A stretch of DNA of 64,000 nucleotides from an uncultured Gammaproteobacteria bacterium (lineage in GTDB: Bacteria > Patescibacteriota > Patescibacteriia > UBA9570 > XYC2-FULL-38-9), in contig CAZBLE010000001.1 in the NCBI GenBank assembly GCA_964492735.1, positions 13,218 to 77,217 on the forward strand. The letters are read 5' to 3'. Both the position numbers and the translations under genes were made by a program. Below are positions 37,398 through 58,105 of this stretch, piece after piece. The notes beneath the pieces are model-generated. The model was not told where the DNA came from. It was given only the letters and a program-made list of their open reading frames with translations, and made no database searches. The stretch's first letter is position 1; each line of letters opens with the position of its first letter.

Positions 37398-37502
37398 CTT
37401 GCCCCTGTAAAAACGACTTTTGCTGAAAAGCGAAGCAGTTTTTTGCTCCCTACAACGCGGCAGAAATGCCAAACACGCGGCTCACAGCCGCAACGTGGAG
37501 AC

Positions 37503-38321
37503 CTCATGGTCAACGTCATTTTTACCCTCTGTTTTCTGATCGTCACCACCCCGAGCGTGCTGCGGCGCGCCCTGGTTGCCCGGGCAATCGCCTGGGCCAA
37601 CTTCCGCGACACGATCGGCAGCGTCAAAGGCTGGGCCAGCATGCGCTGGTTCATTAACTACTACAAGATGATGACTCCGCTCGTCGTCTTGGACCTGATG
37701 GCCTACTTCGAGACCTGGAGCTCGACGGCATGGATTTACTTCGCGGCCCATAGCGCGTACTGCCTGGTGTGGCTCGTAAAGGACAACAAATGGCCGCACT
37801 CCAGCTTCAGCGGCTTGATGCTGAACTGGCAAGGCCTTGCCGGCCTGTGGTTCAGCGTCTTGGGCGCCTTCTGGGTCTGCCCGACGCTGCTCATGGCAGG
37901 GCACATCGAGGTTCCGCTTTGGTGGGCGGCGCTGTGCGGCAGCATGACCATAACAGGCGGCGCGATCACGTACGTCGCCGATGGTCACAAGGCGGATCAA
38001 GTTGCAATCGCGCGCGCGAACGGTGAGAAACACCCACTGATCACGAGCGGCCTGTGGCGCCACATCCTTCACCCGAACTACACGGGTGAAATTGTGACCT
38101 ACACAGCACTGTCCGCCTTCCCGCTTCCGTGGGCATTCATTGCCACGGACTGGCGCTGGCAGGTTGCGGCAATTGTGCCGCTGGTGATCATGGTCCAGGT
38201 GTTCTGGAACGCCATGTTCCCGAACATCTGTCGGATCAACCAGCACATGCTGCAAACCCGCGGTGAGCGCTGGACCCAGCACACGCAGCAAGCCTGGCAG
38301 ATCCTGCCGTATATCTGGTAA
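37503..38321 (+). CDS. High-GC polytopic membrane protein of the ICMT / DUF1295 / steroid 5-alpha-reductase-like methyltransferase superfamily
   Basis: ...LITSGLWRHILHPNYTGEIVTY... matches the RHPNYxGE signature. About 62% GC. An alternative start at 37443 is possible. Confidence 0.6.
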   Translation, partial: LMVNVIFTLCFLIVTTPSVLRRALVARAIAWANFRDTIGSVKGWASMRWFINYYKMMTPLVVLDLMAYFETWSSTAWIYFAAHSAYCLVWLVKDNKWPHSSFSGLMLNWQGLAGLWFSVLGAFWVCPTLLMAGHIEVPLWWAALCGSMTITGGAITYVADGHKADQVAIARANGEKHPLITSGLWRHILHPNYTGEIVTYTALSAFPLPWAFIATDWRWQVAAIVPLVIMVQVFWNAMFPNICRINQHMLQTRGERWTQHTQQAWQILPYIW

Positions 38322-51177: not shown

Positions 51178-52290
51178 TTATTCCTCCCCTTCAAACTCCT
51201 CCATCTCTTTGAGGAGTTTTTTGAATTTGCGAGATGGGTATTGTGGGACATGAATATTCACTTTCACAAGATGGTCACCACGACCGTGTCCGTGCAACCG
51301 TTGAATGCCTTTTCCACGCAGTCGCAAAATCGTTCCGGCGGTTGTTCCGGCTGGAATTTTTAGATCAACCAATCCGTCCAGTGTTTCAACTTCAATACGA
51401 CCACCGAGGACAGCAGTTGGATATGACACCAACTCTTCCACAACCACATCATCACCTTGGCGTTGAAAATTTTCATGGGACTTCACATGGACCACGACAT
51501 ATAAATCACCGGCTGGTCCACCAAATTGCCCAGCCTCACCTTGGCCGCTCATTCGCATGGTTTGTCCATCTTCAATACCGGCTGGAATATTCAACTCAAG
51601 GGTGGTGTTCTTTTTTTCAATCCCGTTTCCACGACACGTTTTGCACGGTGTCTTCACTGTTTTGCCGCGACCATTACAACTTGAACAGGCAACTTGCGTT
51701 CGAATTTGCCCGAAGACGCTGCGCTGAATCTGGTCAACCACGCCTGAACCTTTACAGGTGTCGCAGGCTTCAATTGGCGTTCCTGGCTCTGCGCCGTTTC
51801 CAGAACAGTGTGAACAGGTCGCCCCTTTATACAGCTCCACTTCTTTTTTGACGCCAAAGGCTGCTTCTTTGAAATCAATCGTCGTGTCCATTTGAATATC
51901 TTGGCCACGCTGCTGCGCGCTCGCACCGCCACGTCTGCGTCCACCGCCAAACAAATCACCAAAAATATCGCCGAGATCAAACTCCACGCCTTGGCCGCCG
52001 AAACCGCCTTGGCCTCCAGCTTGGCGCATAATATCTTCCCAATTCATGCCAGCGCCGCCGCCGAAACCGCCTTGGCCATTCACACCCGCTTCTCCAAATT
52101 GGTCGTAGGCGCTGCGTTTTTGCTTATCTGAAAGGACTTGATACGCCTCATTCACCTCTTTGAATTTCGCTTCATCGCCACCGTCTTTGTCAGGGTGATA
52201 TTTGTGCGCAGCTTTCCGAAACGCCTTTTTAATCTCATCTTCTGAGGCGGTTTTTGAAACTCCTAAAATATTGTAATAATCTTTTGCCAT
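51178..52290 (-). CDS. dnaJ: Molecular chaperone DnaJ
   Basis: J-domain with HPD (KYHPDKD), G/F-rich region and four CxxCxGxG zinc-finger repeats. The last 23 codons make up direct repeat copy B. Confidence 0.9.
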   Translation of the reverse strand: MAKDYYNILGVSKTASEDEIKKAFRKAAHKYHPDKDGGDEAKFKEVNEAYQVLSDKQKRSAYDQFGEAGVNGQGGFGGGAGMNWEDIMRQAGGQGGFGGQGVEFDLGDIFGDLFGGGRRRGGASAQQRGQDIQMDTTIDFKEAAFGVKKEVELYKGATCSHCSGNGAEPGTPIEACDTCKGSGVVDQIQRSVFGQIRTQVACSSCNGRGKTVKTPCKTCRGNGIEKKNTTLELNIPAGIEDGQTMRMSGQGEAGQFGGPAGDLYVVVHVKSHENFQRQGDDVVVEELVSYPTAVLGGRIEVETLDGLVDLKIPAGTTAGTILRLRGKGIQRLHGHGRGDHLVKVNIHVPQYPSRKFKKLLKEMEEFEGEE

Positions 52291-52296
52291 ATCTTC

Positions 52297-52638
52297 TTAT
52301 ACTGTATTAGTTTTTCGCAGTCGTTGCACTATATAAAGAATTCCCCAAACTGGCAATGACCAGATAAATGCGGAAAAAAGAACGAAGGCAGCTAATCCAA
52401 GGACTTGATACACTACTCCTCCAAATCCATAAACACTGGTTAGATATGGATCAACCATAAATGCCCACGCGATTGCTGGGAATGTTATAAACAGCATTGC
52501 TCGAGAAAAAAAAGTTTCACCATTAAATAGATCTTGTCCAAATACATACGACAAAAATAGCACCACGATAAACACCAAGACCCACACGAGATATGTCAGG
52601 ATATATGGATTGACTAGTTTTGTAAGGAAAGATTTCAT
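52297..52638 (-). CDS. Small 3-4-TM membrane protein, paralog 3 of a tandem triplet
   Basis: 113 aa; shares MKxFLxKLVNxYxLTYL...WSLPVWGI motifs with the two upstream genes. Confidence 0.55.
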   Translation of the reverse strand: MKSFLTKLVNPYILTYLVWVLVFIVVLFLSYVFGQDLFNGETFFSRAMLFITFPAIAWAFMVDPYLTSVYGFGGVVYQVLGLAAFVLFSAFIWSLPVWGILYIVQRLRKTNTV

Positions 52639-52647
52639 GAGTGTCTG

Positions 52648-52974
52648 TTATTTATTCTTACTTTTTATTGCATGGATAATTCCCCAAACCGGAAGTGACC
52701 AAACCAATGAACTAAAAACAGTGACGCTCAATGCTTCTTGCGTAAGGTGGACAACGGCAGCATCTTGAAACATACGCTCAATAGCAAATCCGATTACAAA
52801 AAAATATGCGATCGCGGGTATCTCAAAAACCATAAACACCCGATAAATAATATCATTGTCGTATGTTGCTCGTTGTAAGAGCACAATGATAATTGAAAAC
52901 ACAAAGAAAATCAGAAACGTGATGACGTATGGATTTTTGAGCGTCTTGATCATTTTTTGAAAAGTCGTATTCAT
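52648..52974 (-). CDS. Small membrane protein, paralog 2 of the tandem triplet
   Basis: 108 aa; conserved WSLPVWGII block. Confidence 0.55.
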   Translation of the reverse strand: MNTTFQKMIKTLKNPYVITFLIFFVFSIIIVLLQRATYDNDIIYRVFMVFEIPAIAYFFVIGFAIERMFQDAAVVHLTQEALSVTVFSSLVWSLPVWGIIHAIKSKNK

Positions 52975-52983
52975 AGGTGTCTG

Positions 52984-53325
52984 TTATTTTTTATTACTGC
53001 GTTTCCAAGGATTGATTTGCGCAACAAATAACATCCCCCAAATCGGAAGTGACCAAGTAAGTGCTGAAAAAAATGTTGCTAGCACAATACCAATAAGTTG
53101 ATACCACACTGTATTGGAAAACCCTGACATGTATATATCTAATGGCATTGCCAAAAATATTCCGGGCAGCAATATTAACACCAGCGCATTTCCAAATAAA
53201 CTATCTGGGGGCGCATTTTGCCCATCTAATAATTGAGCTAAAAGCACTGCACTCACACACACCAAAAATAATATAAGATACGTTAGCGTATATCGATTGA
53301 CGAGTTTTATAAGGAAAGGTTTCAT
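52984..53325 (-). CDS. Small membrane protein, paralog 1 of the tandem triplet
   Basis: 113 aa; conserved WSLPIWGML block. Confidence 0.55.
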   Translation of the reverse strand: MKPFLIKLVNRYTLTYLILFLVCVSAVLLAQLLDGQNAPPDSLFGNALVLILLPGIFLAMPLDIYMSGFSNTVWYQLIGIVLATFFSALTWSLPIWGMLFVAQINPWKRSNKK

Positions 53326-53356
53326 AGGTGTGTATTATGATTGTTTATTGGCTTGC

Positions 53357-53438
53357 GGGGAAGTAGCTCTCAAAACCCCGTTCGCTTCGCTCTCTGGCAG
53401 CAGAGCTGCTAATTGGTTTTGAGTAGCCACTTTCCCCT
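53357..53438. repeat. Inverted repeat element, copy L; it is itself a long imperfect hairpin
   Basis: GGGGAAGTAGCTCTCAAAACC...GGTTTTGAGTAGCCACTTTCCCC. Its core is about 91% identical to the reverse complement of 54597..54662. Confidence 0.8.
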
Positions 53439-53479
53439 CCGTCTTTACATGTTATTTTTCGCTTTTCGGTAAGTCATGG

Positions 53480-54007
53480 TTATTTTTTTGGCTCAATGCC
53501 TAACTCTAATAAAATACAATCCGCTGAACCTACTTTATTATCCTCCAATTTACATTCAACTTTTTTTATAGAATTGAGTAATTGATTATATTGCACGCCG
53601 TCGATTTTGAGATATTGTGTCTCATCTATTTTAACGGGAACAATCACTTGCCATATTCCAATCATTAAAGCAATTAACGAAATAAAAATAGCGATTAAAG
53701 AGTATTTTTTAGCATCTTGTGCATTTACTCGCGCTAATTTTAATTCATCATATTCAATTAATTTAAAATACCCCTCAAAAGAAATTGCATATCTCCAATC
53801 CAGCATTGGTTTATTCGGATATTGAGTAAGGATTTCCACAACTTCTCGCCTGTCAAATACACTGATTAAATAATTTTCCCATTCTGGAAATTTTTCTAAT
53901 GCTTCTTTTTGTGTAAAACCTGATTTTTGAGACACACAATACCGAAGAAACTGAATCTGAAAATCATTATCGTCGAGGAACTCCTTTGTTCTTTTTCGGT
54001 AGGTCAT
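53480..54007 (-). CDS. Hypothetical cassette protein with a central TM helix
   Basis: 175 aa; about 33% GC; 4-nt overlap with the upstream cassette gene. Confidence 0.5.
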   Translation of the reverse strand: MTYRKRTKEFLDDNDFQIQFLRYCVSQKSGFTQKEALEKFPEWENYLISVFDRREVVEILTQYPNKPMLDWRYAISFEGYFKLIEYDELKLARVNAQDAKKYSLIAIFISLIALMIGIWQVIVPVKIDETQYLKIDGVQYNQLLNSIKKVECKLEDNKVGSADCILLELGIEPKK

Positions 54008-54522
54008 TTTATTTCGGATATTTTTCTTGGAATCTTAATTTTTCCTTTTTGATAAAAATGAAAACTGTACTTATTTAATAATTTCATGGCTTGAAATAAA
54101 TCTTTCGTGTCTCGATTAATTTTTTCTAAAGATGTACTACCTGAGTATTTATCAGCGGTTCCAAATTCAGTATGTGTTTCAGAAAACATAGCCTTTGAAG
54201 CAAGCGTCCAAAACTTTTTATTTACAGTACTATGAACATGATCATTTCGTGTGTTTATAATTTTCTGTAAAGAAGTAATTAATTCATGATTTTTTGGATA
54301 AAACTTTGCAAGATATTTAATTATTTCTTTAGTACTGTGTCCTTGAAGATTGGTTTTTTTATAGTTACGAGCATTTAAATCTTTTATAATCAACTTTTCT
54401 ATTCTAACGTTAATATCATCAGCATGTTCTTTAATACTACTAATAAAAATATTAAAAAACACTTGATAAATAAAATGTGCTTCTAAAAATTCATTTAAAT
54501 TCTGATACTCTTCTTCGTCCAT
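54004..54522 (-). CDS. Hypothetical all-alpha cassette protein; possible HEPN-like Rx4H motif
   Basis: 172 aa. ...INTRNDHVHST... fits the Rx4-6H motif of HEPN domains. Speculative. Confidence 0.45.
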   Translation of the reverse strand: MDEEEYQNLNEFLEAHFIYQVFFNIFISSIKEHADDINVRIEKLIIKDLNARNYKKTNLQGHSTKEIIKYLAKFYPKNHELITSLQKIINTRNDHVHSTVNKKFWTLASKAMFSETHTEFGTADKYSGSTSLEKINRDTKDLFQAMKLLNKYSFHFYQKGKIKIPRKISEIK

Positions 54523-54587
54523 TTAATCGATTATAAGGATATTGACTAAAAATAAAACTAAAAAACTTATATATTTTGTGCGGTGTA

Positions 54588-54670
54588 AGGTGTGGTGTCT
54601 ACTCAAAACCAATTAGCGGCTCTGCCGCCAGCGAGCGAACGCGAGCGGGGTTTTGAGAGACACGCACACC
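54588..54670. repeat. Inverted repeat element, copy R; long hairpin, inverted relative to copy L
   Basis: GGTGTGGTGTCTACTCAAAACC...GGTTTTGAGAGACACGCACACC. Lies 18 nt downstream of the dnaK stop. Confidence 0.8.
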
Positions 54671-54688
54671 TGAAACCATTACACGATG

Positions 54689-56605
54689 TTATTTCTTTTC
54701 TTCGTCTGTCTTCTCTTCAAAATCTGCATCAACAACATCTTCTTTCTTGGCTTCACCTTCAGCTCCGCCTTCTGCTCCAGCAGCTTTTTCTTCTTCCGCT
54801 GCTTTATACAAAATCTCGCCAATCTTTTGCGCTGCTTCAGAGAGCGCTTGAGATGCTGTGTCGATTGCTTCTTTTTCTGACTTGTCGTCTGCAAGCACTT
54901 TCTTCAAGGCTTCCGCTTTTTCCTCAATCGCTTTTTTATCTTCTTCTGGAACTTTGTCGCCAGCATCTTTCACAGCTTTTTCTGTTGAATAGAGCAAGCT
55001 TTCAGCAATGTTGCGCGCTTCGATCAATTCTTTTTTCGCGCGATCTTCATCAGCATGCGCTTCAGCATCTTGTTTCATCTTTTCGATTTCCGCATCTGAC
55101 AAACCGCTGGACGCTTCAATGCGAATAGATTGTTCTTTGCCTGACGCCTTATCAACCGCTTTCACATTCAAGATACCGTTGGCATCAACATCAAAGGTGA
55201 CTTCCACTTGTGGCACGCCACGTGGAGCTGGTGGAATACCGGACAAAATAAATCGTCCGAGTGATTTATTGTCTGCCGCCATTTCACGTTCCCCTTGTGT
55301 GACATGCACTTCAACTTGTGTTTGATTGTCTGCCGCAGTTGAGAAAATTTGTGACTTACTACTTGGAATAGTTGTATTACTTTCAATCAACTTTGTTGCA
55401 ACGCCGCCCAATGTTTCAATTCCGAGGCTGAGAGGGATCACATCCAAAAGCAAAATATCTTTCACATCTTTTTGCAGAACGCCAGCTTGCACAGCAGCAC
55501 CGAGCGCGACCACTTCATCTGGATTCACTGTTGCGTTTGGTTTTTTACCGAAGAACTCTTCCACTTTTGATTGGATTAGTGGCATTCGAGTTTGTCCACC
55601 AACCAAAATAATTTCATTGATCGCTCCCTTATCAACACCTGCAATCTTCAAGGCTTCACGCACTGGTTCGAAGGTGCGAGCAACCAAGTCACTCACCAAT
55701 TCTTCGAGTTTCGCACGAGTCACTTTCATCACCAAATGTTTTGGTCCAGTACTTGGATCGTTGGCGATAAATGGTTCGTTGATTTCTGTGTCAGCTGCTG
55801 ATGACAATTCAATCTTGGCTTTTTCTGCTGCTGATTTCAAGCGTTGCAATGCAAGATTGTCTTGTTTCAAATCAATGCCTTCTTGTTTTTTGAATTCATC
55901 AACAATGTGATTGATTAAGACTTGGTCAAAATCGTCACCACCCAAATGCGTGTCACCATGCGTTGATTTCACTTCAACGGTATCTTCTGATACTTCAAGG
56001 ACAGAAACATCGAATGTGCCGCCACCCAAATCGTATACCAAGATTTTTTCATCTTTCTTTTTATCAAAACCATACGCAAGGGCCGCTGCTGTTGGTTCAT
56101 TGATAATGCGCTTTACATCAAGACCTGCAATTTTTCCGGCATCTTTTGTTGCTTGGCGTTGTGAATCATCAAAATACGCAGGAACAGTAATCACTGCTTC
56201 AGTGATTGTTTCACCGAGCTTTTCTTCTGCATCCGCTTTCAATTTCATCAAAATTTTTGCAGAAATTTCTTGTGGAGTGTATTGCTTTTCTCCCATTTTC
56301 ACCATCACGCGTTCACCGTCTTTGACGATTTCGTATGGCATCAATGACAAATCTTTTTGCACTTCTGCGTCTTCAAACCGGCGACCAATCAAACGCTTCA
56401 CACTAAAGATTGTGTTTTTCGCATTTGTCACGGCTTGGCGTTTTGCACCAACCCCGACTAAAATTTCACCAGTTTTTGTTTCCGCAACAATTGATGGAGT
56501 TGTGCGGTTGCCTTCATTGTTTTCGATCACCTTCGCCGCGCCGCCTTCAAAAATCGCGACACACGAGTTGGTGGTTCCGAGATCGATTCCGAGAATTTTA
56601 CTCAT
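54689..56605 (-). CDS. dnaK: Molecular chaperone DnaK (Hsp70)
   Basis: [34 protein letters not shown] and an EEVD-less acidic C-terminus; 638 aa. Confidence 0.95.
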
Positions 56606-56761
56606 ATATATAATTATTATTAGTTATTTATTGAATGTAAGACTTTCAGATTTGAGTGAAGTTCGAGGAAAAAGTGAGGAGCGTACCGAGGCGTAGGCTG
56701 CCTACGTCGAGGGAGCACCGGAGCTTTTGACAAAGAAATTCACCAAATATGGAAGTCGTAA

Positions 56762-57286
56762 TTATTTAACAACTTTGACTCGCGCCACTTGGATGACTTT
56801 CCCGTTGAGAGTAAATCCAGTGGACACTTCTTCTGCGACTGTACCGGATTTCTGCTTTCCGTCGCCGTCCACTTCTTCGACTGCTTCATGCATTGTGGCG
56901 TCAAACGGTTTTCCGACAGCTGCAATCGGCTCTGCTCCATGCGCTTTTAAAATGTTCATGAAGTTTTGCTGAATGTATTCAATGCCCTTCGCCCACGCAT
57001 TGTCGCGATCCTCTGGCGGAATGCCAGCGAGCGCATATTTGAAATGGTCGACCATCGGCAAGAGCTCTTGGAGGAATTGTTCAGTCGCAAACTTGTTAAT
57101 GTGCTGCAGGCGTTGCTGCGTGTCTTTTTGAAGGTTTTGGTAATCGGCTTGTGACCGCTTCCAGCCTTCTAAGTATTCTGCCGCGCGCTCGGCATCAGTT
57201 TTTTCTTCTGGTGTTGCCTCTTCTGTTTCTGGTGTTTCCGGCGGCGCGTGTTCTTGTTCGTCTTGTGGTGTGTCATTTTTTGTCAT
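56762..57286 (-). CDS. grpE: Nucleotide exchange factor GrpE
   Basis: Coiled-coil N-terminus and a conserved C-terminal beta-domain; sits between hrcA and dnaK. Confidence 0.8.
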   Translation of the reverse strand: MTKNDTPQDEQEHAPPETPETEEATPEEKTDAERAAEYLEGWKRSQADYQNLQKDTQQRLQHINKFATEQFLQELLPMVDHFKYALAGIPPEDRDNAWAKGIEYIQQNFMNILKAHGAEPIAAVGKPFDATMHEAVEEVDGDGKQKSGTVAEEVSTGFTLNGKVIQVARVKVVK

Positions 57287-58011
57287 AAGCGTTTTTGTTG
57301 CTGATTCATAAATTGTTCGAGTGCCTGCAGAATGTTGATGTTGCGGTTATAATCCATCCGCATTGGCCCAAGAATGCCGAAGACCGACTGTCTTCCATCT
57401 TGGTCATATTCAGCAACGATCATGGCGCAATGACGTGACACTGGATTTTTATCTCCAATAAACACCTCAATGTCTTTTTCCATTTTCGATCGCGCGGAAT
57501 CCAAGACACTTTCCATGTCATCAAACATATCAGACACTTCCAGCATCATTTCACGACCATCCACAAATTCTGGCTTGCGGAGCATATTGGCGATTCCAGT
57601 ATAATAAAATTCTTCGCCATCAATACTCATCACGACCATCTCGTCAGTGAGTGACGAAATCGCGCGTGCCATTTGTTTCGCGGTTTGCACGGCGCTGTCT
57701 GGGGCGCTGGTTGCTGCTTCAGACAGTTCGTGATGCTGCCGCTTGGTGAGTGATCGTTTGTGCAGAAAATTGGTAATATAATATTGATACCCCATTTCTG
57801 TTGGGATTCGGCCGGCGGATGTATGCGGCTGCTCAATGTAGCCACCTGTTTCCAGCTCTGCCAAATCGTTACGCAATGTCGCTGGTGAGACGCCAAAGTC
57901 ATGGTCATCAAACAGCTGTTTTGAGCTGACCGGTTTTGCGGTTGCGATATATTGCTCGACAACGGCTTGCAAAATCGATTCTAAACGCTCTGTATTGCCT
58001 AATTGGGTCAT
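57283..58011 (-). CDS. hrcA: Heat-inducible transcription repressor HrcA (short form)
   Basis: N-terminal wHTH (...PVSSKQLFDDHDFGVSPATLRNDLAELE...). 4-nt overlap with grpE. CIRCE lies immediately upstream. Confidence 0.8.
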   Translation of the reverse strand: MTQLGNTERLESILQAVVEQYIATAKPVSSKQLFDDHDFGVSPATLRNDLAELETGGYIEQPHTSAGRIPTEMGYQYYITNFLHKRSLTKRQHHELSEAATSAPDSAVQTAKQMARAISSLTDEMVVMSIDGEEFYYTGIANMLRKPEFVDGREMMLEVSDMFDDMESVLDSARSKMEKDIEVFIGDKNPVSRHCAMIVAEYDQDGRQSVFGILGPMRMDYNRNINILQALEQFMNQQQKRL

Positions 58012-58021
58012 ATATTTTGAA

Positions 58022-58048
58022 TTAGCAGTCTCTTGGTGAGAGTGCTAA
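58022..58048. promoter_or_regulatory. CIRCE operator (HrcA binding site)
   Basis: TTAGCAGTC-N9-GAGTGCTAA against the consensus TTAGCACTC-N9-GAGTGCTAA (1 mismatch), 11-37 nt upstream of the hrcA start. Confidence 0.8.
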
Positions 58049-58060
58049 TTCAGTATGCCA

Positions 58061-58089
58061 AAAAACCCTTGAACGTGTCAAGGGTTTTG
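58061..58089 (-). terminator. Rho-independent terminator of the HAD hydrolase gene
   Basis: 11-bp stem AAAACCCTTGA/TCAAGGGTTTT, followed on the minus strand by TTTTTT. Confidence 0.6.
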
Positions 58090-58105
58090 ATTCTATAGAG
58101 TTATT

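What the first reader, a model, noticed from the sequence alone, without database searches (positions are those of the whole stretch)
53357..54670. Two-gene low-GC cassette flanked by hairpin-forming inverted repeats, inserted between dnaK and dnaJ
About 82-nt elements at 53357..53438 and 54588..54670 are mutual reverse complements (about 91% over the 66-nt core). Each folds into a long imperfect hairpin of about 22 bp (core CTCAAAACC...GGTTTTGAG plus inner GCAGC-AGA-GCTGC). They bracket 1.15 kb of about 33% GC DNA encoding two overlapping hypothetical proteins: one with a TM helix, one all-alpha with an HEPN-like Rx4H motif.

The insert splits the normally contiguous dnaK-dnaJ pair. Copy R sits 18 nt after the dnaK stop; copy L sits just upstream of the small-membrane-protein triplet. 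The architecture (terminal inverted repeats, AT-rich cargo, no transposase) resembles a MITE-like or recombinase-mobilised cassette. Alternatively, a pre-existing dnaK-dnaJ intercistronic stem-loop was duplicated by the insertion.
Basis: seen in the sequence. Interest (0 to 1): 0.75.

Follow-up and report, generated by a model that had tools for sequence, protein, structure and literature searches.

The report
Swappable gene slot between dnaK and dnaJ
The two hairpin repeats are real, but they are fixed landmarks of a small hot spot inside a heat-shock operon where close relatives carry completely different AT-rich genes, not the ends of a jumping element.

Summary
Two hairpin-forming elements, really about 106 nt each, lie in inverted orientation at 53345-53450 (L) and 54575-54682 (R). 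They bracket 1.12 kb of 28% GC DNA holding two translationally coupled genes.

The mobile-cassette reading is not supported:
- Six related loci carry at least six unrelated AT-rich cargos at this position.
- R stays beside three different cargos and L beside four.
- Unrelated long palindromes (X, Y) replace R or L in two alleles.
- One allele has cargo and R, no L, and an intact GNAT gene. The first 26-40 nt of that gene survive elsewhere as a stub before L and as the start of gene 2. So R is the resident post-dnaK stem-loop and L is a later inverted paralogue.
- No further copies were found in the window or in the one related draft genome that the public scan reached.

Flanking genes show mosaic divergence, as expected from recombination. 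The hairpins keep their pairing through compensatory changes. They are 90-95% identical between genomes whose synonymous divergence is 0.3-0.8.

Best reading: a "minimal mobile element"-type cargo slot inside the hrcA-grpE-dnaK-dnaJ operon. The hairpins are probably transcript processing or insulating stem-loops. The HEPN claim is unsupported; gene 1 is an ORFan.

The parts
54575..54682 (.).
   Evidence: Orthologous copies sit at the same place in L004 (7754-7859) and L011 (3294-3400), 91-93% identical. No U-tract follows the stem.
53345..53450 (.). Hairpin unit L, an inverted paralogue of R (73-79% identical over 106 nt). The 19-nt and 14-nt core blocks are identical. The outer 12-bp stem differs in sequence but still pairs.
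   Evidence: Orthologous copies are in L003, L005 and L009, 91-95% identical. L is absent from L011. In L010 it is partly overwritten by hairpin Y.
54004..54522 (-). Cargo gene 1. 172 aa, predicted all-alpha, an ORFan, 25% GC. Carries an RNDHVH motif of unproven meaning.
   Evidence: Only itself is found among 5.8 billion proteins and 1.84 billion representatives. No family hit. AF2 pLDDT is 53.7. A 172-codon ORF in 25% GC DNA is very unlikely by chance.
53480..54007 (-). Cargo gene 2. 175 aa with one transmembrane helix, translationally coupled to gene 1 through an ATGA overlap. Its first roughly 9 codons derive from the 5' end of a GNAT gene.
   Evidence: One homologue (P0003, 83% identity) at the same position in L003. 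dN/dS is 0.17. The 5'-end alignment is A4.
53452..53477 (-). Stub: a 26-nt remnant (extending to about 40 nt) of the 5' end of the GNAT gene that is intact in L011. It lies between the gene 2 stop and hairpin L and forms a direct repeat with the gene 2 start (53982-54007).
   Evidence: the repeat finder family D11; alignment A4; intact GNAT gene at L011 4768-5202.
54530..54535 (-). Perfect TATAAT hexamer 7 nt upstream of the gene 1 ATG, with no Shine-Dalgarno sequence. Possibly an own, leaderless-type promoter for the cargo.
   Evidence: Read directly from the sequence. Not picked up by the consensus scan, which needs a -35 match. Inference only.
54689..56605 (-). dnaK, the conserved left anchor of the slot.
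   Evidence: PF00012.
52297..53325 (-). Three paralogous small-membrane-protein genes. Their number varies from 1 to 3 among relatives. They lie between the slot and dnaJ.
   Evidence: The window has three paralogues, L003 two, L005 and L009 one each. L011 has three genes (119, 129 and 122 aa) in the same position that I did not align with the family.
51178..52290 (-). dnaJ, the conserved right anchor of the slot.

Best explanation
Overall picture. The region is one allele of a hypervariable accessory-gene slot inside the HrcA/CIRCE-controlled operon of a rare uncultured bacterial lineage. The gene order is hrcA-grpE-dnaK-[slot]-small membrane genes-dnaJ.

The hairpins. R is the resident long stem-loop that follows dnaK. 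L is a later inverted paralogue of R. It marks the far edge of the slot in alleles where a GNAT gene was truncated.

The cargo. The AT-rich cargo between them (here an ORFan plus a small membrane protein) is replaced wholesale between close relatives. The likely route is recombination that uses the conserved flanks, as in Neisseria 'minimal mobile elements'. It is not transposition of an R-cargo-L unit.

How the hairpins probably work. They are kept by selection for both pairing and sequence. Most likely they act in the polycistronic transcript as processing, 3'-end-protecting or insulating stem-loops of the RNase III-substrate type, as described for CREE elements. This would uncouple dnaK and dnaJ expression from whatever cargo sits between them.

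What is shown and what is inferred. Shown: the repeats, their pairing and covariation, cargo replacement, resident hairpins, the GNAT stub, and mosaic flanks. Inferred: homologous recombination as the exchange mechanism, the RNA-level role of the hairpins, and a conflict or defence role for the cargo.
For: 1. Cargo differs at one position.
- Window: 172 aa + 175 aa.
- L003: 256 aa + the 175-aa homologue.
- CALKUP01 (L004/L005/L012): other genes, one on the opposite strand.
- L009 and the P0022 contig: 195 aa + 283 aa.
- L010: another gene.
- L011: a short ORF of about 40 codons read by eye, then 144 aa + 254 aa.
- P0013 contig: 270 aa.
- All sequenced cargos are 24-32% GC against about 43% for the host.

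2. The hairpins are resident. R lies beside three different cargos and L beside four. Orthologous copies are 90-95% identical, while flanking genes have dS 0.3-0.8.

3. Pairing is selected. 98.5% of cells are paired, and 6 pairs carry changes on both sides against 0-1 in the slid controls.

4. The role looks structure-based. Unrelated long palindromes sit at the same positions: X after dnaK in L003 (z -7.2) and Y in L010.

5. R is ancestral and L derived. L011 has R, cargo and an intact GNAT gene but no L. The other alleles keep only the GNAT 5' end.

6. Flanks are mosaic. For L011 against CALKUP01, dnaK dS is 0.185 but dnaJ dS is 0.596. For the window against L003, dS is 0.09 in hrcA, 0.14 in grpE, 0.32 in dnaK and 0.51 in dnaJ.

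7. The element is not a dispersed repeat and not mobile as a unit. There are only two copies in the window, and only the two locus copies in CALKUP01, the one related genome the genome scan reached. Nothing related was found in the metagenome or viral scans. No recombinase appeared among the 10 neighbouring ORFs tested.

8. The hairpins are not canonical terminators. No U-tract follows them, although the genome does use a canonical terminator at about 58063-58092.

9. Precedent. The MME definition is in PMC3082526. CREE hairpins bind RNase III and are cleaved or protected by it (PMC2649163). In E. coli the main dnaK transcript carries dnaK alone, and dnaK and dnaJ mRNA levels respond differently to loss of RNase III or RNase E (PMC3082872).

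10. One cargo protein (L009, 283 aa) matches the PADLOC defence candidate PDC-S32 at E 9e-10.
Against: - Only about seven loci from a rare lineage are available, several on short contigs. CALKUP01 is a binned MAG, so its left and right flanks may not come from one genome.
- No transcript data exist. Strand asymmetry does not favour the sense strand consistently: L folds better in sense, R is equal on both strands, and X and Z fold better in antisense.
- Unpaired core bases are conserved between L and R in reverse-complement form. An RNA-sequence reader cannot explain that. It points to DNA-level recognition or to gene conversion.
- Junctions between conserved and variable DNA hug the hairpin bases. 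That is also what a site-specific mechanism would give.
- No 'empty' allele was seen.
- Evidence for cargo function is thin: one candidate-family hit, and the rest are ORFans.
Confidence: 0.55

Rival explanations
1. Structure-specific recombination sites. The long hairpins (R, L, X, Y) would be attC-like folded recombination sites, and cargo modules would be inserted or exchanged at them by a recombinase encoded elsewhere. This would be a hairpin-based cassette-exchange system without a linked integrase.
For: - Junctions between conserved and variable DNA lie at or within about 30 nt of the hairpin bases.
- Different cargos arrive with different hairpins of similar architecture but unrelated sequence: X with the L003 gene, Y with the L010 cargo.
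- The core is extremely conserved, including unpaired bases, in both orientations.
- The cargos are small AT-rich ORFans, as in integron cassettes.
- A 26-nt direct repeat flanks gene 2.
Against: - No recombinase was found among the 10 nearby ORFs scanned, and none is evident by eye from the other ORFs of the window.
- The attC R''/R' consensus (RYYYAAC/GTTRRRY) is not matched. The stem reads TCAAAAC/GTTTTGA (sequence).
- There are no arrays.
- L011 has cargo with only one hairpin.
- Junctions next to hairpins are expected anyway in a tightly packed spacer.
Confidence: 0.15
2. Selfish small palindromic MITEs. R and L would be two independent insertions, in opposite orientations, of one family of about 106-nt foldback elements, like the Z element nearby. 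They would have no host function and no causal link to the cargo. Their conservation would reflect recent spread or gene conversion.
For: - Z (56636-56757) behaves like a MITE. It is present in the window and L011 at 98% identity while the flanks are about 91% identical.
- Z is absent from L003 and L004 with clean boundaries, has roughly 20-nt terminal inverted repeats, and has TTAC on both sides.
- X/R and Y/L are replacement polymorphisms.
- Covariation in the outer stems could reflect matched terminal repeats rather than hairpin function.
Against: - Only two R/L copies were found in the window, and two in the one related genome reached, all at this locus.
- R is at the identical position in three divergent genomes and L in four, with paralogue divergence (73-79%) far above orthologue divergence. 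These are old, fixed, constrained elements, not recent insertions.
- I saw no target-site duplication for R or L.
- L coincides exactly with the GNAT truncation.
Confidence: 0.2
3. R-cargo-L would be a non-autonomous transposon or recombinase-mobilised cassette with the hairpins as its terminal inverted repeats, recently inserted between dnaK and dnaJ.
For: Inverted repeats bracket low-GC cargo with no transposase.
Against: - The repeats stay while the cargo changes.
- R exists without L in L011.
- The repeats are as old as the lineage split.
- No copies occur elsewhere.
- I found no target-site duplication by eye.
- The cargo itself is composite, since gene 2 is flanked by its own 26-nt repeat.
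Confidence: 0.05
4. Invertible segment (phase variation). Recombination between the inverted repeats would flip the cargo relative to the operon promoter.
For: About 60 nt of more than 90% identical inverted repeats lie 1.15 kb apart.
Against: - All assemblies show the cargo co-oriented with dnaK. These are the window plus the fragments L001, L002 and L008 from two further datasets.
- The outer stems of each copy pair with themselves, whereas inversion through the core would mismatch them.
- No invertase gene was seen.
Confidence: 0.03

Closest known systems
Minimal mobile elements (MMEs) of Neisseria (Saunders & Snyder 2002; Snyder et al. 2007; definition quoted in PMC3082526)
   Same: Two conserved genes (dnaK and dnaJ plus the membrane genes) lie on either side of a site where different whole-gene cassettes occur in different strains. 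The cassettes carry no mobility genes, are low in GC, and the flanks have mosaic histories consistent with homologous recombination.
   Different: The slot lies inside an essential heat-shock operon. It is bracketed by a private pair of inverted paralogous hairpins rather than by a dispersed repeat family. The lineage is an uncultured bacterium whose competence is unknown. Exchange by homologous recombination is inferred, not shown.
Correia repeat enclosed elements (CREE) of Neisseria, and similar small palindromic intergenic repeats such as ERIC, REP/BIME and Rickettsia RPEs (CREE: PMC2649163; the others from my own knowledge)
   Same: They are imperfect palindromes of about 100-150 nt in transcribed spacers that fold into long hairpins. 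They show presence/absence or replacement polymorphism between relatives (Z, X/R, Y/L). CREEs bind RNase III, affect the expression of neighbouring genes, and (from my own knowledge) often border MMEs.
   Different: The R/L family has only two copies, both at one locus. Neither RNase III cleavage nor any promoter activity has been tested.
Integron cassettes and attC sites
   Same: Small AT-rich ORFan cargo. Boundary hairpins of 60-140 nt conserved in structure more than in sequence across alleles, with bulged bases and a branched tip.
   Different: The R''/R' consensus is absent. The two sites are inverted, there is no array, and no integrase was found in the 64 kb. One allele has cargo with a single hairpin.
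Stem-loops and processing between dnaK and dnaJ in model bacteria (E. coli: PMC3082872; B. subtilis dnaK operon processing, from my own knowledge)
   Same: A structured element directly after dnaK within a dnaK-dnaJ polycistron, with the expected consequence of different dnaK and dnaJ mRNA levels.
   Different: Here the stem is 21-22 bp with a branched tip, about 106 nt long, duplicated in inverted form, and 1.1-1.4 kb of foreign genes are interposed.

Membership tests
Composite MITE-like / TIR-bounded transposable cassette | Terminal inverted repeats at both ends | tested here: met
   Inverted repeats of 45 nt (91%) and 19 nt (95%); the units extend to about 106 nt.
Composite MITE-like / TIR-bounded transposable cassette | Target-site duplication directly outside the ends | tested here: not met
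   The flanks read ...ATGATTGT | unit L and unit R | ACGATGTT... on the + strand. No clear direct repeat by eye. The R-distal flank is also native in L011, which lacks L.
Composite MITE-like / TIR-bounded transposable cassette | Ends travel with the cargo, and further copies exist elsewhere | tested here: not met
   The same R or L lies beside different cargos. Only two copies in the window. In the scan of one genome per species, only the two locus copies of CALKUP01 matched. No related copy in the metagenome or viral scans.
Integron cassette / attC | R'' RYYYAAC and R' GTTRRRY core sites at the base of the hairpin | tested here: not met
   The only AAC/GTT triplets are in the inner stem TCAAAAC/GTTTTGA, which does not fit the consensus. 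The outer stems are GGGGAAAGTGGC and AGGTGTGGTGTC.
Integron cassette / attC | attC sites in one orientation, in arrays, next to intI and attI | tested here: not met
   The copies are inverted and there is no array. No recombinase was found among the 10 nearby ORFs scanned. Only 64 kb of the 143-kb contig was visible.
Minimal mobile element (MME) | Two conserved genes flanking a site that holds different whole-gene cassettes in different strains | tested here: met
   At least six different cargos lie between dnaK and the membrane genes/dnaJ.
Minimal mobile element (MME) | Incorporation by homologous recombination in the flanks, with no mobility genes of its own | tested here: inconclusive
   No mobility genes in any cargo. 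Mosaic dS across the slot supports recombination. The mechanism itself cannot be observed, and one comparison relies on two contigs of a binned MAG.
HEPN-domain protein (gene 1) | Rx4-6H motif | tested here: met
   R92-N-D-H-V-H97. Expected by chance about 0.25 times in this protein (my count).
HEPN-domain protein (gene 1) | Profile or sequence similarity to a HEPN family | tested here: not met
   No HEPN hit in Pfam at E<=1, PADLOC, NCBIfam or PDB sequences. No homologue at all among 1.84 billion representatives.
HEPN-domain protein (gene 1) | Four-helix up-down bundle with the motif at the start of the last core helix | tested here: inconclusive
   The AF2 single-sequence model is all-helical, with the motif at the start of helix 94-112. 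Mean pLDDT is 53.7, too low for a fold search.
Intrinsic (Rho-independent) terminator | GC-rich stem followed by a U-tract | tested here: not met
   No U-tract follows either outer stem in the sense strand. The scan only picks out the inner mini-hairpin followed by the stem's own TTTTG. A canonical terminator does exist upstream of the CIRCE element.
Small palindromic intergenic repeat (CREE/ERIC/RPE-like) | Imperfect palindrome of about 100-150 nt in transcribed spacers | tested here: met
Small palindromic intergenic repeat (CREE/ERIC/RPE-like) | Dispersed multi-copy family | tested here: not met
   Two copies of R/L only. X, Y and Z are single-copy in all sequence held. Whole genomes could not be scanned for X, Y and Z.
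IS200/IS605-derived element (PATE) | Subterminal hairpins on the same strand at both ends, with TnpA in trans | tested here: not met
   The R and L hairpins are reverse complements of each other. No TnpA was seen.

The most novel reading that the evidence does not exclude
The long hairpins would be structure-specific recombination sites of a cassette-exchange system that has no linked integrase. It would load alternative conflict or defence genes into an HrcA/CIRCE heat-shock operon, so that their expression is tied to proteotoxic or phage-induced stress. This would be an integron-like principle with inverted, sequence-diverse hairpin sites in a rare uncultured lineage.
Probability: 0.1. Interest if true: 0.75.

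Novelty: new variant of a known kind. Interest (0 to 1): 0.45.

Why it matters
It shows that even the core heat-shock operon can host a gene-swapping hot spot. It also gives a clean natural series of at least six alleles with defined junctions, a gene stub, and resident and replacement hairpins. That series could be used to study how small genomes exchange accessory, possibly defence, genes without mobility genes. It could equally show how long stem-loops insulate essential genes from foreign inserts. If the hairpins turn out to be recombination sites, this would be a new cassette-exchange mechanism.

Tried and rejected
- Rfam: no family matches the hairpins at any threshold.
- Public scans with the hairpin core. 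The metagenome scan gave one chance match, an unrelated terminator (L006). The viral scan gave none.
- Homologue searches. Gene 1 finds only itself. Gene 2 has one homologue. tblastn against phages and plasmids finds nothing.
- Structure prediction. Gene 1 has pLDDT 53.7 and gene 2 has 37.8. Both are too poor for fold searches, so none were run.
- HEPN: no profile support (see the membership test).
- attC: the consensus boxes are absent.
- Target-site duplication for R and L: none seen by eye.
- CIRCE link. The core shares AATTAGCA with the operon's CIRCE half-site. It is only an 8-mer with no second half-site, so I treat it as chance.
- Strand-asymmetry test for an RNA role: inconsistent between hairpins.
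- The GC-rich 'structured' regions found by the MFE scan are a protein-coding gene at 37443-38321 and a region at 1-950 with no Rfam match. No RNA family matches either region.
- Exact look-ups of window proteins returned only fragments of the same strain.
- The taxon could not be named: the records are titled only 'uncultured bacterium'.
Full report
**1. The observation**

All genes of the region lie on the - strand:
- hrcA 57283-58011
- grpE 56762-57286
- dnaK 54689-56605
- gene 1 54004-54522 (172 aa)
- gene 2 53480-54007 (175 aa)
- three paralogous small-membrane-protein genes 52297-53325
- dnaJ 51178-52290

A CIRCE element (58022-58048) and a canonical U-tract terminator lie upstream of hrcA.

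The two repeats are real. The repeat finder gives inverted arms of 45 nt (91%) and 19 nt (95%). The core pattern is expected 0.04 times by chance. Each copy folds into a long imperfect hairpin with z -5 to -7.

Aligned in one orientation, homology extends to about 106 nt: R 54575-54682 and L 53345-53450. The DNA between them is 28% GC against 43% for the window.

**2. Anatomy of the hairpins**

All seven copies recovered share two blocks exactly: a 19-nt block (CTACTCAAAACCAATTAGC) and a 14-nt block (CGGGGTTTTGAGAG). The copies are L in the window, L003, L005 and L009, and R in the window, L004 and L011.

The outer 12-bp stem differs between L (GGGGAAAGTGGC) and R (AGGTGTGGTGTC), yet it pairs in both. 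On the alignment, 98.5% of cells are standard pairs. Six pairs show changes on both sides, five separating L from R and one arising within the L copies. Slid controls give 0-1 such pairs.

Orthologous copies are 90-95% identical, while synonymous divergence of the neighbouring genes is 0.3-0.8. L and R are 73-79% identical to each other. The elements are therefore old and constrained in both pairing and sequence.

No U-tract follows them, so they are not canonical terminators. No Rfam family matches.

**3. Copy number**

A covariance model of the element finds only the two copies in the 64-kb window, and only the locus copies in 106 kb of related DNA. A scan of one genome per species found the element in a single MAG (CALKUP01, a species other than the window's), and there only at this locus. 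The metagenome scan gave one chance match and the viral scan none. This is not a dispersed repeat family.

**4. Relatives**

The lineage is rare: a profile of the membrane paralogues finds 10 proteins among 5.8 billion. Six loci with DNA and two with gene maps only were recovered.

| Locus | Arrangement |
|---|---|
| L003 | dnaK - unrelated roughly 150-nt palindrome X - 256-aa gene - gene 2 homologue (83%) - L - 106-aa gene - 2 membrane genes - dnaJ |
| CALKUP01 (L004, L005, L012) | dnaK - R - other cargo with a contig break inside it and one gene on the opposite strand - L - 106-aa gene - 1 membrane gene - dnaJ |
| L009 and P0022 contig | dnaK - 141-nt spacer - 195 aa - 283 aa - L - 1 membrane gene - dnaJ |
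| L010 | other cargo - palindrome Y, which overwrites the left part of L but keeps its right arm - 106-aa gene |
| L011 | dnaK - R - short ORF of about 40 codons (read by eye), 144 aa, 254 aa (27% GC) - intact GNAT gene (50% GC) - three genes of 119, 129 and 122 aa in the place of the membrane paralogues - dnaJ, with no L |
| P0013 contig | dnaK - 116 nt - 270 aa - 135 nt - 106 aa - membrane genes |

Three fragments from two other datasets (L001, L002, L008) are 100% identical to the window and collinear with it.

**5. Origin of L and the composite nature of the 'cassette'**

The first 26 nt of the L011 GNAT gene (ATGACCTACCGAATAGCGACAAAGGA) recur twice in the window and in L003. One copy is the start of gene 2. 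The other is a stub between the gene 2 stop and L, where similarity runs about 40 nt, right up to the base of L.

L is present exactly in the alleles where GNAT is truncated and absent where it is intact. So R is the older, resident post-dnaK stem-loop, and L is a secondary inverted paralogue that arose with the loss of GNAT. Whether this was an inverted duplication or a second insertion followed by a deletion cannot be decided.

The variable/conserved junction between the window and L003 falls at the dnaK stop on one side and at the gene 2 start codon on the other. The swapped module there is [hairpin + gene 1].

**6. Recombination signature**

Between the window and L003, dS rises toward the slot: hrcA 0.09, grpE 0.14, dnaK 0.32, gene 2 0.54, dnaJ 0.51. 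L011 and CALKUP01 are near-identical on the dnaK side (dS 0.185) but not on the dnaJ side (dS 0.596). The caveat is that CALKUP01 is a binned MAG. Gene 2 is under purifying selection (dN/dS 0.17).

**7. Cargo function**

Gene 1 is a true ORFan with no family match. Its RNDHVH motif is expected by chance about once in four such proteins (my count). The AF2 model is too weak to test a HEPN fold.

Gene 2 has one transmembrane helix and no matches. Other cargos are also small, often membrane-associated ORFans. Only the 283-aa protein of L009 hits a family, the PADLOC defence candidate PDC-S32 (E 9e-10). A conflict or defence role is a reasonable guess, not a result.

A perfect TATAAT sits 7 nt before the gene 1 ATG (54530-54535), so the cargo may have its own leaderless-type promoter. 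This is inference.

**8. How it most likely works**

The best-supported picture is an MME-like slot (definition in PMC3082526). Conserved anchor genes allow incoming DNA from related strains to replace the cargo by homologous recombination. The hairpins are resident elements that survive because they matter to the operon.

Four facts point to a role for the fold itself, most simply in the transcript:
- their position directly after dnaK and at the far edge of the insert
- the 21-22-bp stems
- the missing U-tract
- unrelated long palindromes (X, Y) taking the same positions

Such a role would be RNase III-type processing, 3'-end protection or insulation. Two precedents exist. CREE elements bind RNase III and are cleaved or protected by it (PMC2649163). 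In E. coli, dnaK and dnaJ mRNA levels respond differently to loss of RNase III or RNase E (PMC3082872).

Two facts argue against a purely RNA role. Strand asymmetry is inconsistent. Unpaired core bases are conserved in reverse-complement form between L and R, which points to DNA-level recognition or gene conversion. These keep the attC-like rival alive at about 0.15.

**9. Verdict**

This is a new variant of known kinds: an MME-type hot spot combined with CREE/ERIC-like palindromes. What is notable is its location inside the heat-shock operon and its private pair of inverted paralogous hairpins. Interest is moderate.

Noticed in passing
window 56636-56757 (grpE-dnaK spacer); L011 1221-1343: A third, unrelated palindromic element of about 118 nt (Z) with roughly 20-nt terminal inverted repeats. 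It is present in the window and in L011 at 98% identity although the flanks are about 91% identical. It is cleanly absent from L003 and L004. TTAC lies on both sides in the window. It folds much better on the + strand (-50.5 kcal/mol, z -6.0) than on the operon-sense strand (-32). It looks like a recently moved MITE.
   Followed up: partly
L003 3343-3497; L010 about 545-640: Two more unrelated long palindromes occupy the positions of R (X, about 150 nt, z -7.2; -69 kcal/mol on the antisense strand) and of L (Y, which keeps only the right arm of L). Each comes with a different cargo.
   Followed up: partly
window 52297-53325; L003 5340-5963; L005 1053-1394; L011 5212-6333: The small membrane-protein genes between the slot and dnaJ are paralogues with an invariant FS..WSLP.WG motif. 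Their number varies: three in the window, two in L003, one in L005 and L009. L011 has three genes in the same position that I did not align with the family. The family has only 10 members among 5.8 billion proteins.
   Followed up: partly
L003 4941-5261; L005 723-1043; L010 668-988 (absent from the window and L009): A conserved 106-aa gene (dN/dS 0.02) is present or absent directly distal to hairpin L. The indel junction lies at the end of the L unit (GCCAATAAA|). So variation occurs on both sides of L.
   Followed up: partly
window 37443-38321 and 1-950: GC-rich patches (up to 71% GC in a 43% GC genome) gave the strongest folding energies in the window. The first is a 292-aa membrane protein gene; the orthologous CALKUP01 gene carries a faint DUF1295 hit. 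No Rfam family matches either patch. They look like horizontally acquired high-GC DNA.
   Followed up: partly
window 58022-58048 and about 58063-58092: A textbook CIRCE operator (TTAGCACTCTC-N5-GAGACTGCTAA in the sense strand) lies upstream of hrcA, preceded by a canonical hairpin + U-tract terminator. The genome therefore does use ordinary terminators.
   Followed up: yes
L009 276-1127: The 283-aa cargo protein of another allele matches the PADLOC phage-defence candidate PDC-S32 (E 9e-10, residues 108-280). No paper in the library mentions that family.
   Followed up: partly
window 54530-54535: A perfect TATAAT lies 7 nt upstream of the gene 1 start codon with no Shine-Dalgarno sequence. Several host genes here also lack an obvious Shine-Dalgarno sequence.
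   Followed up: no
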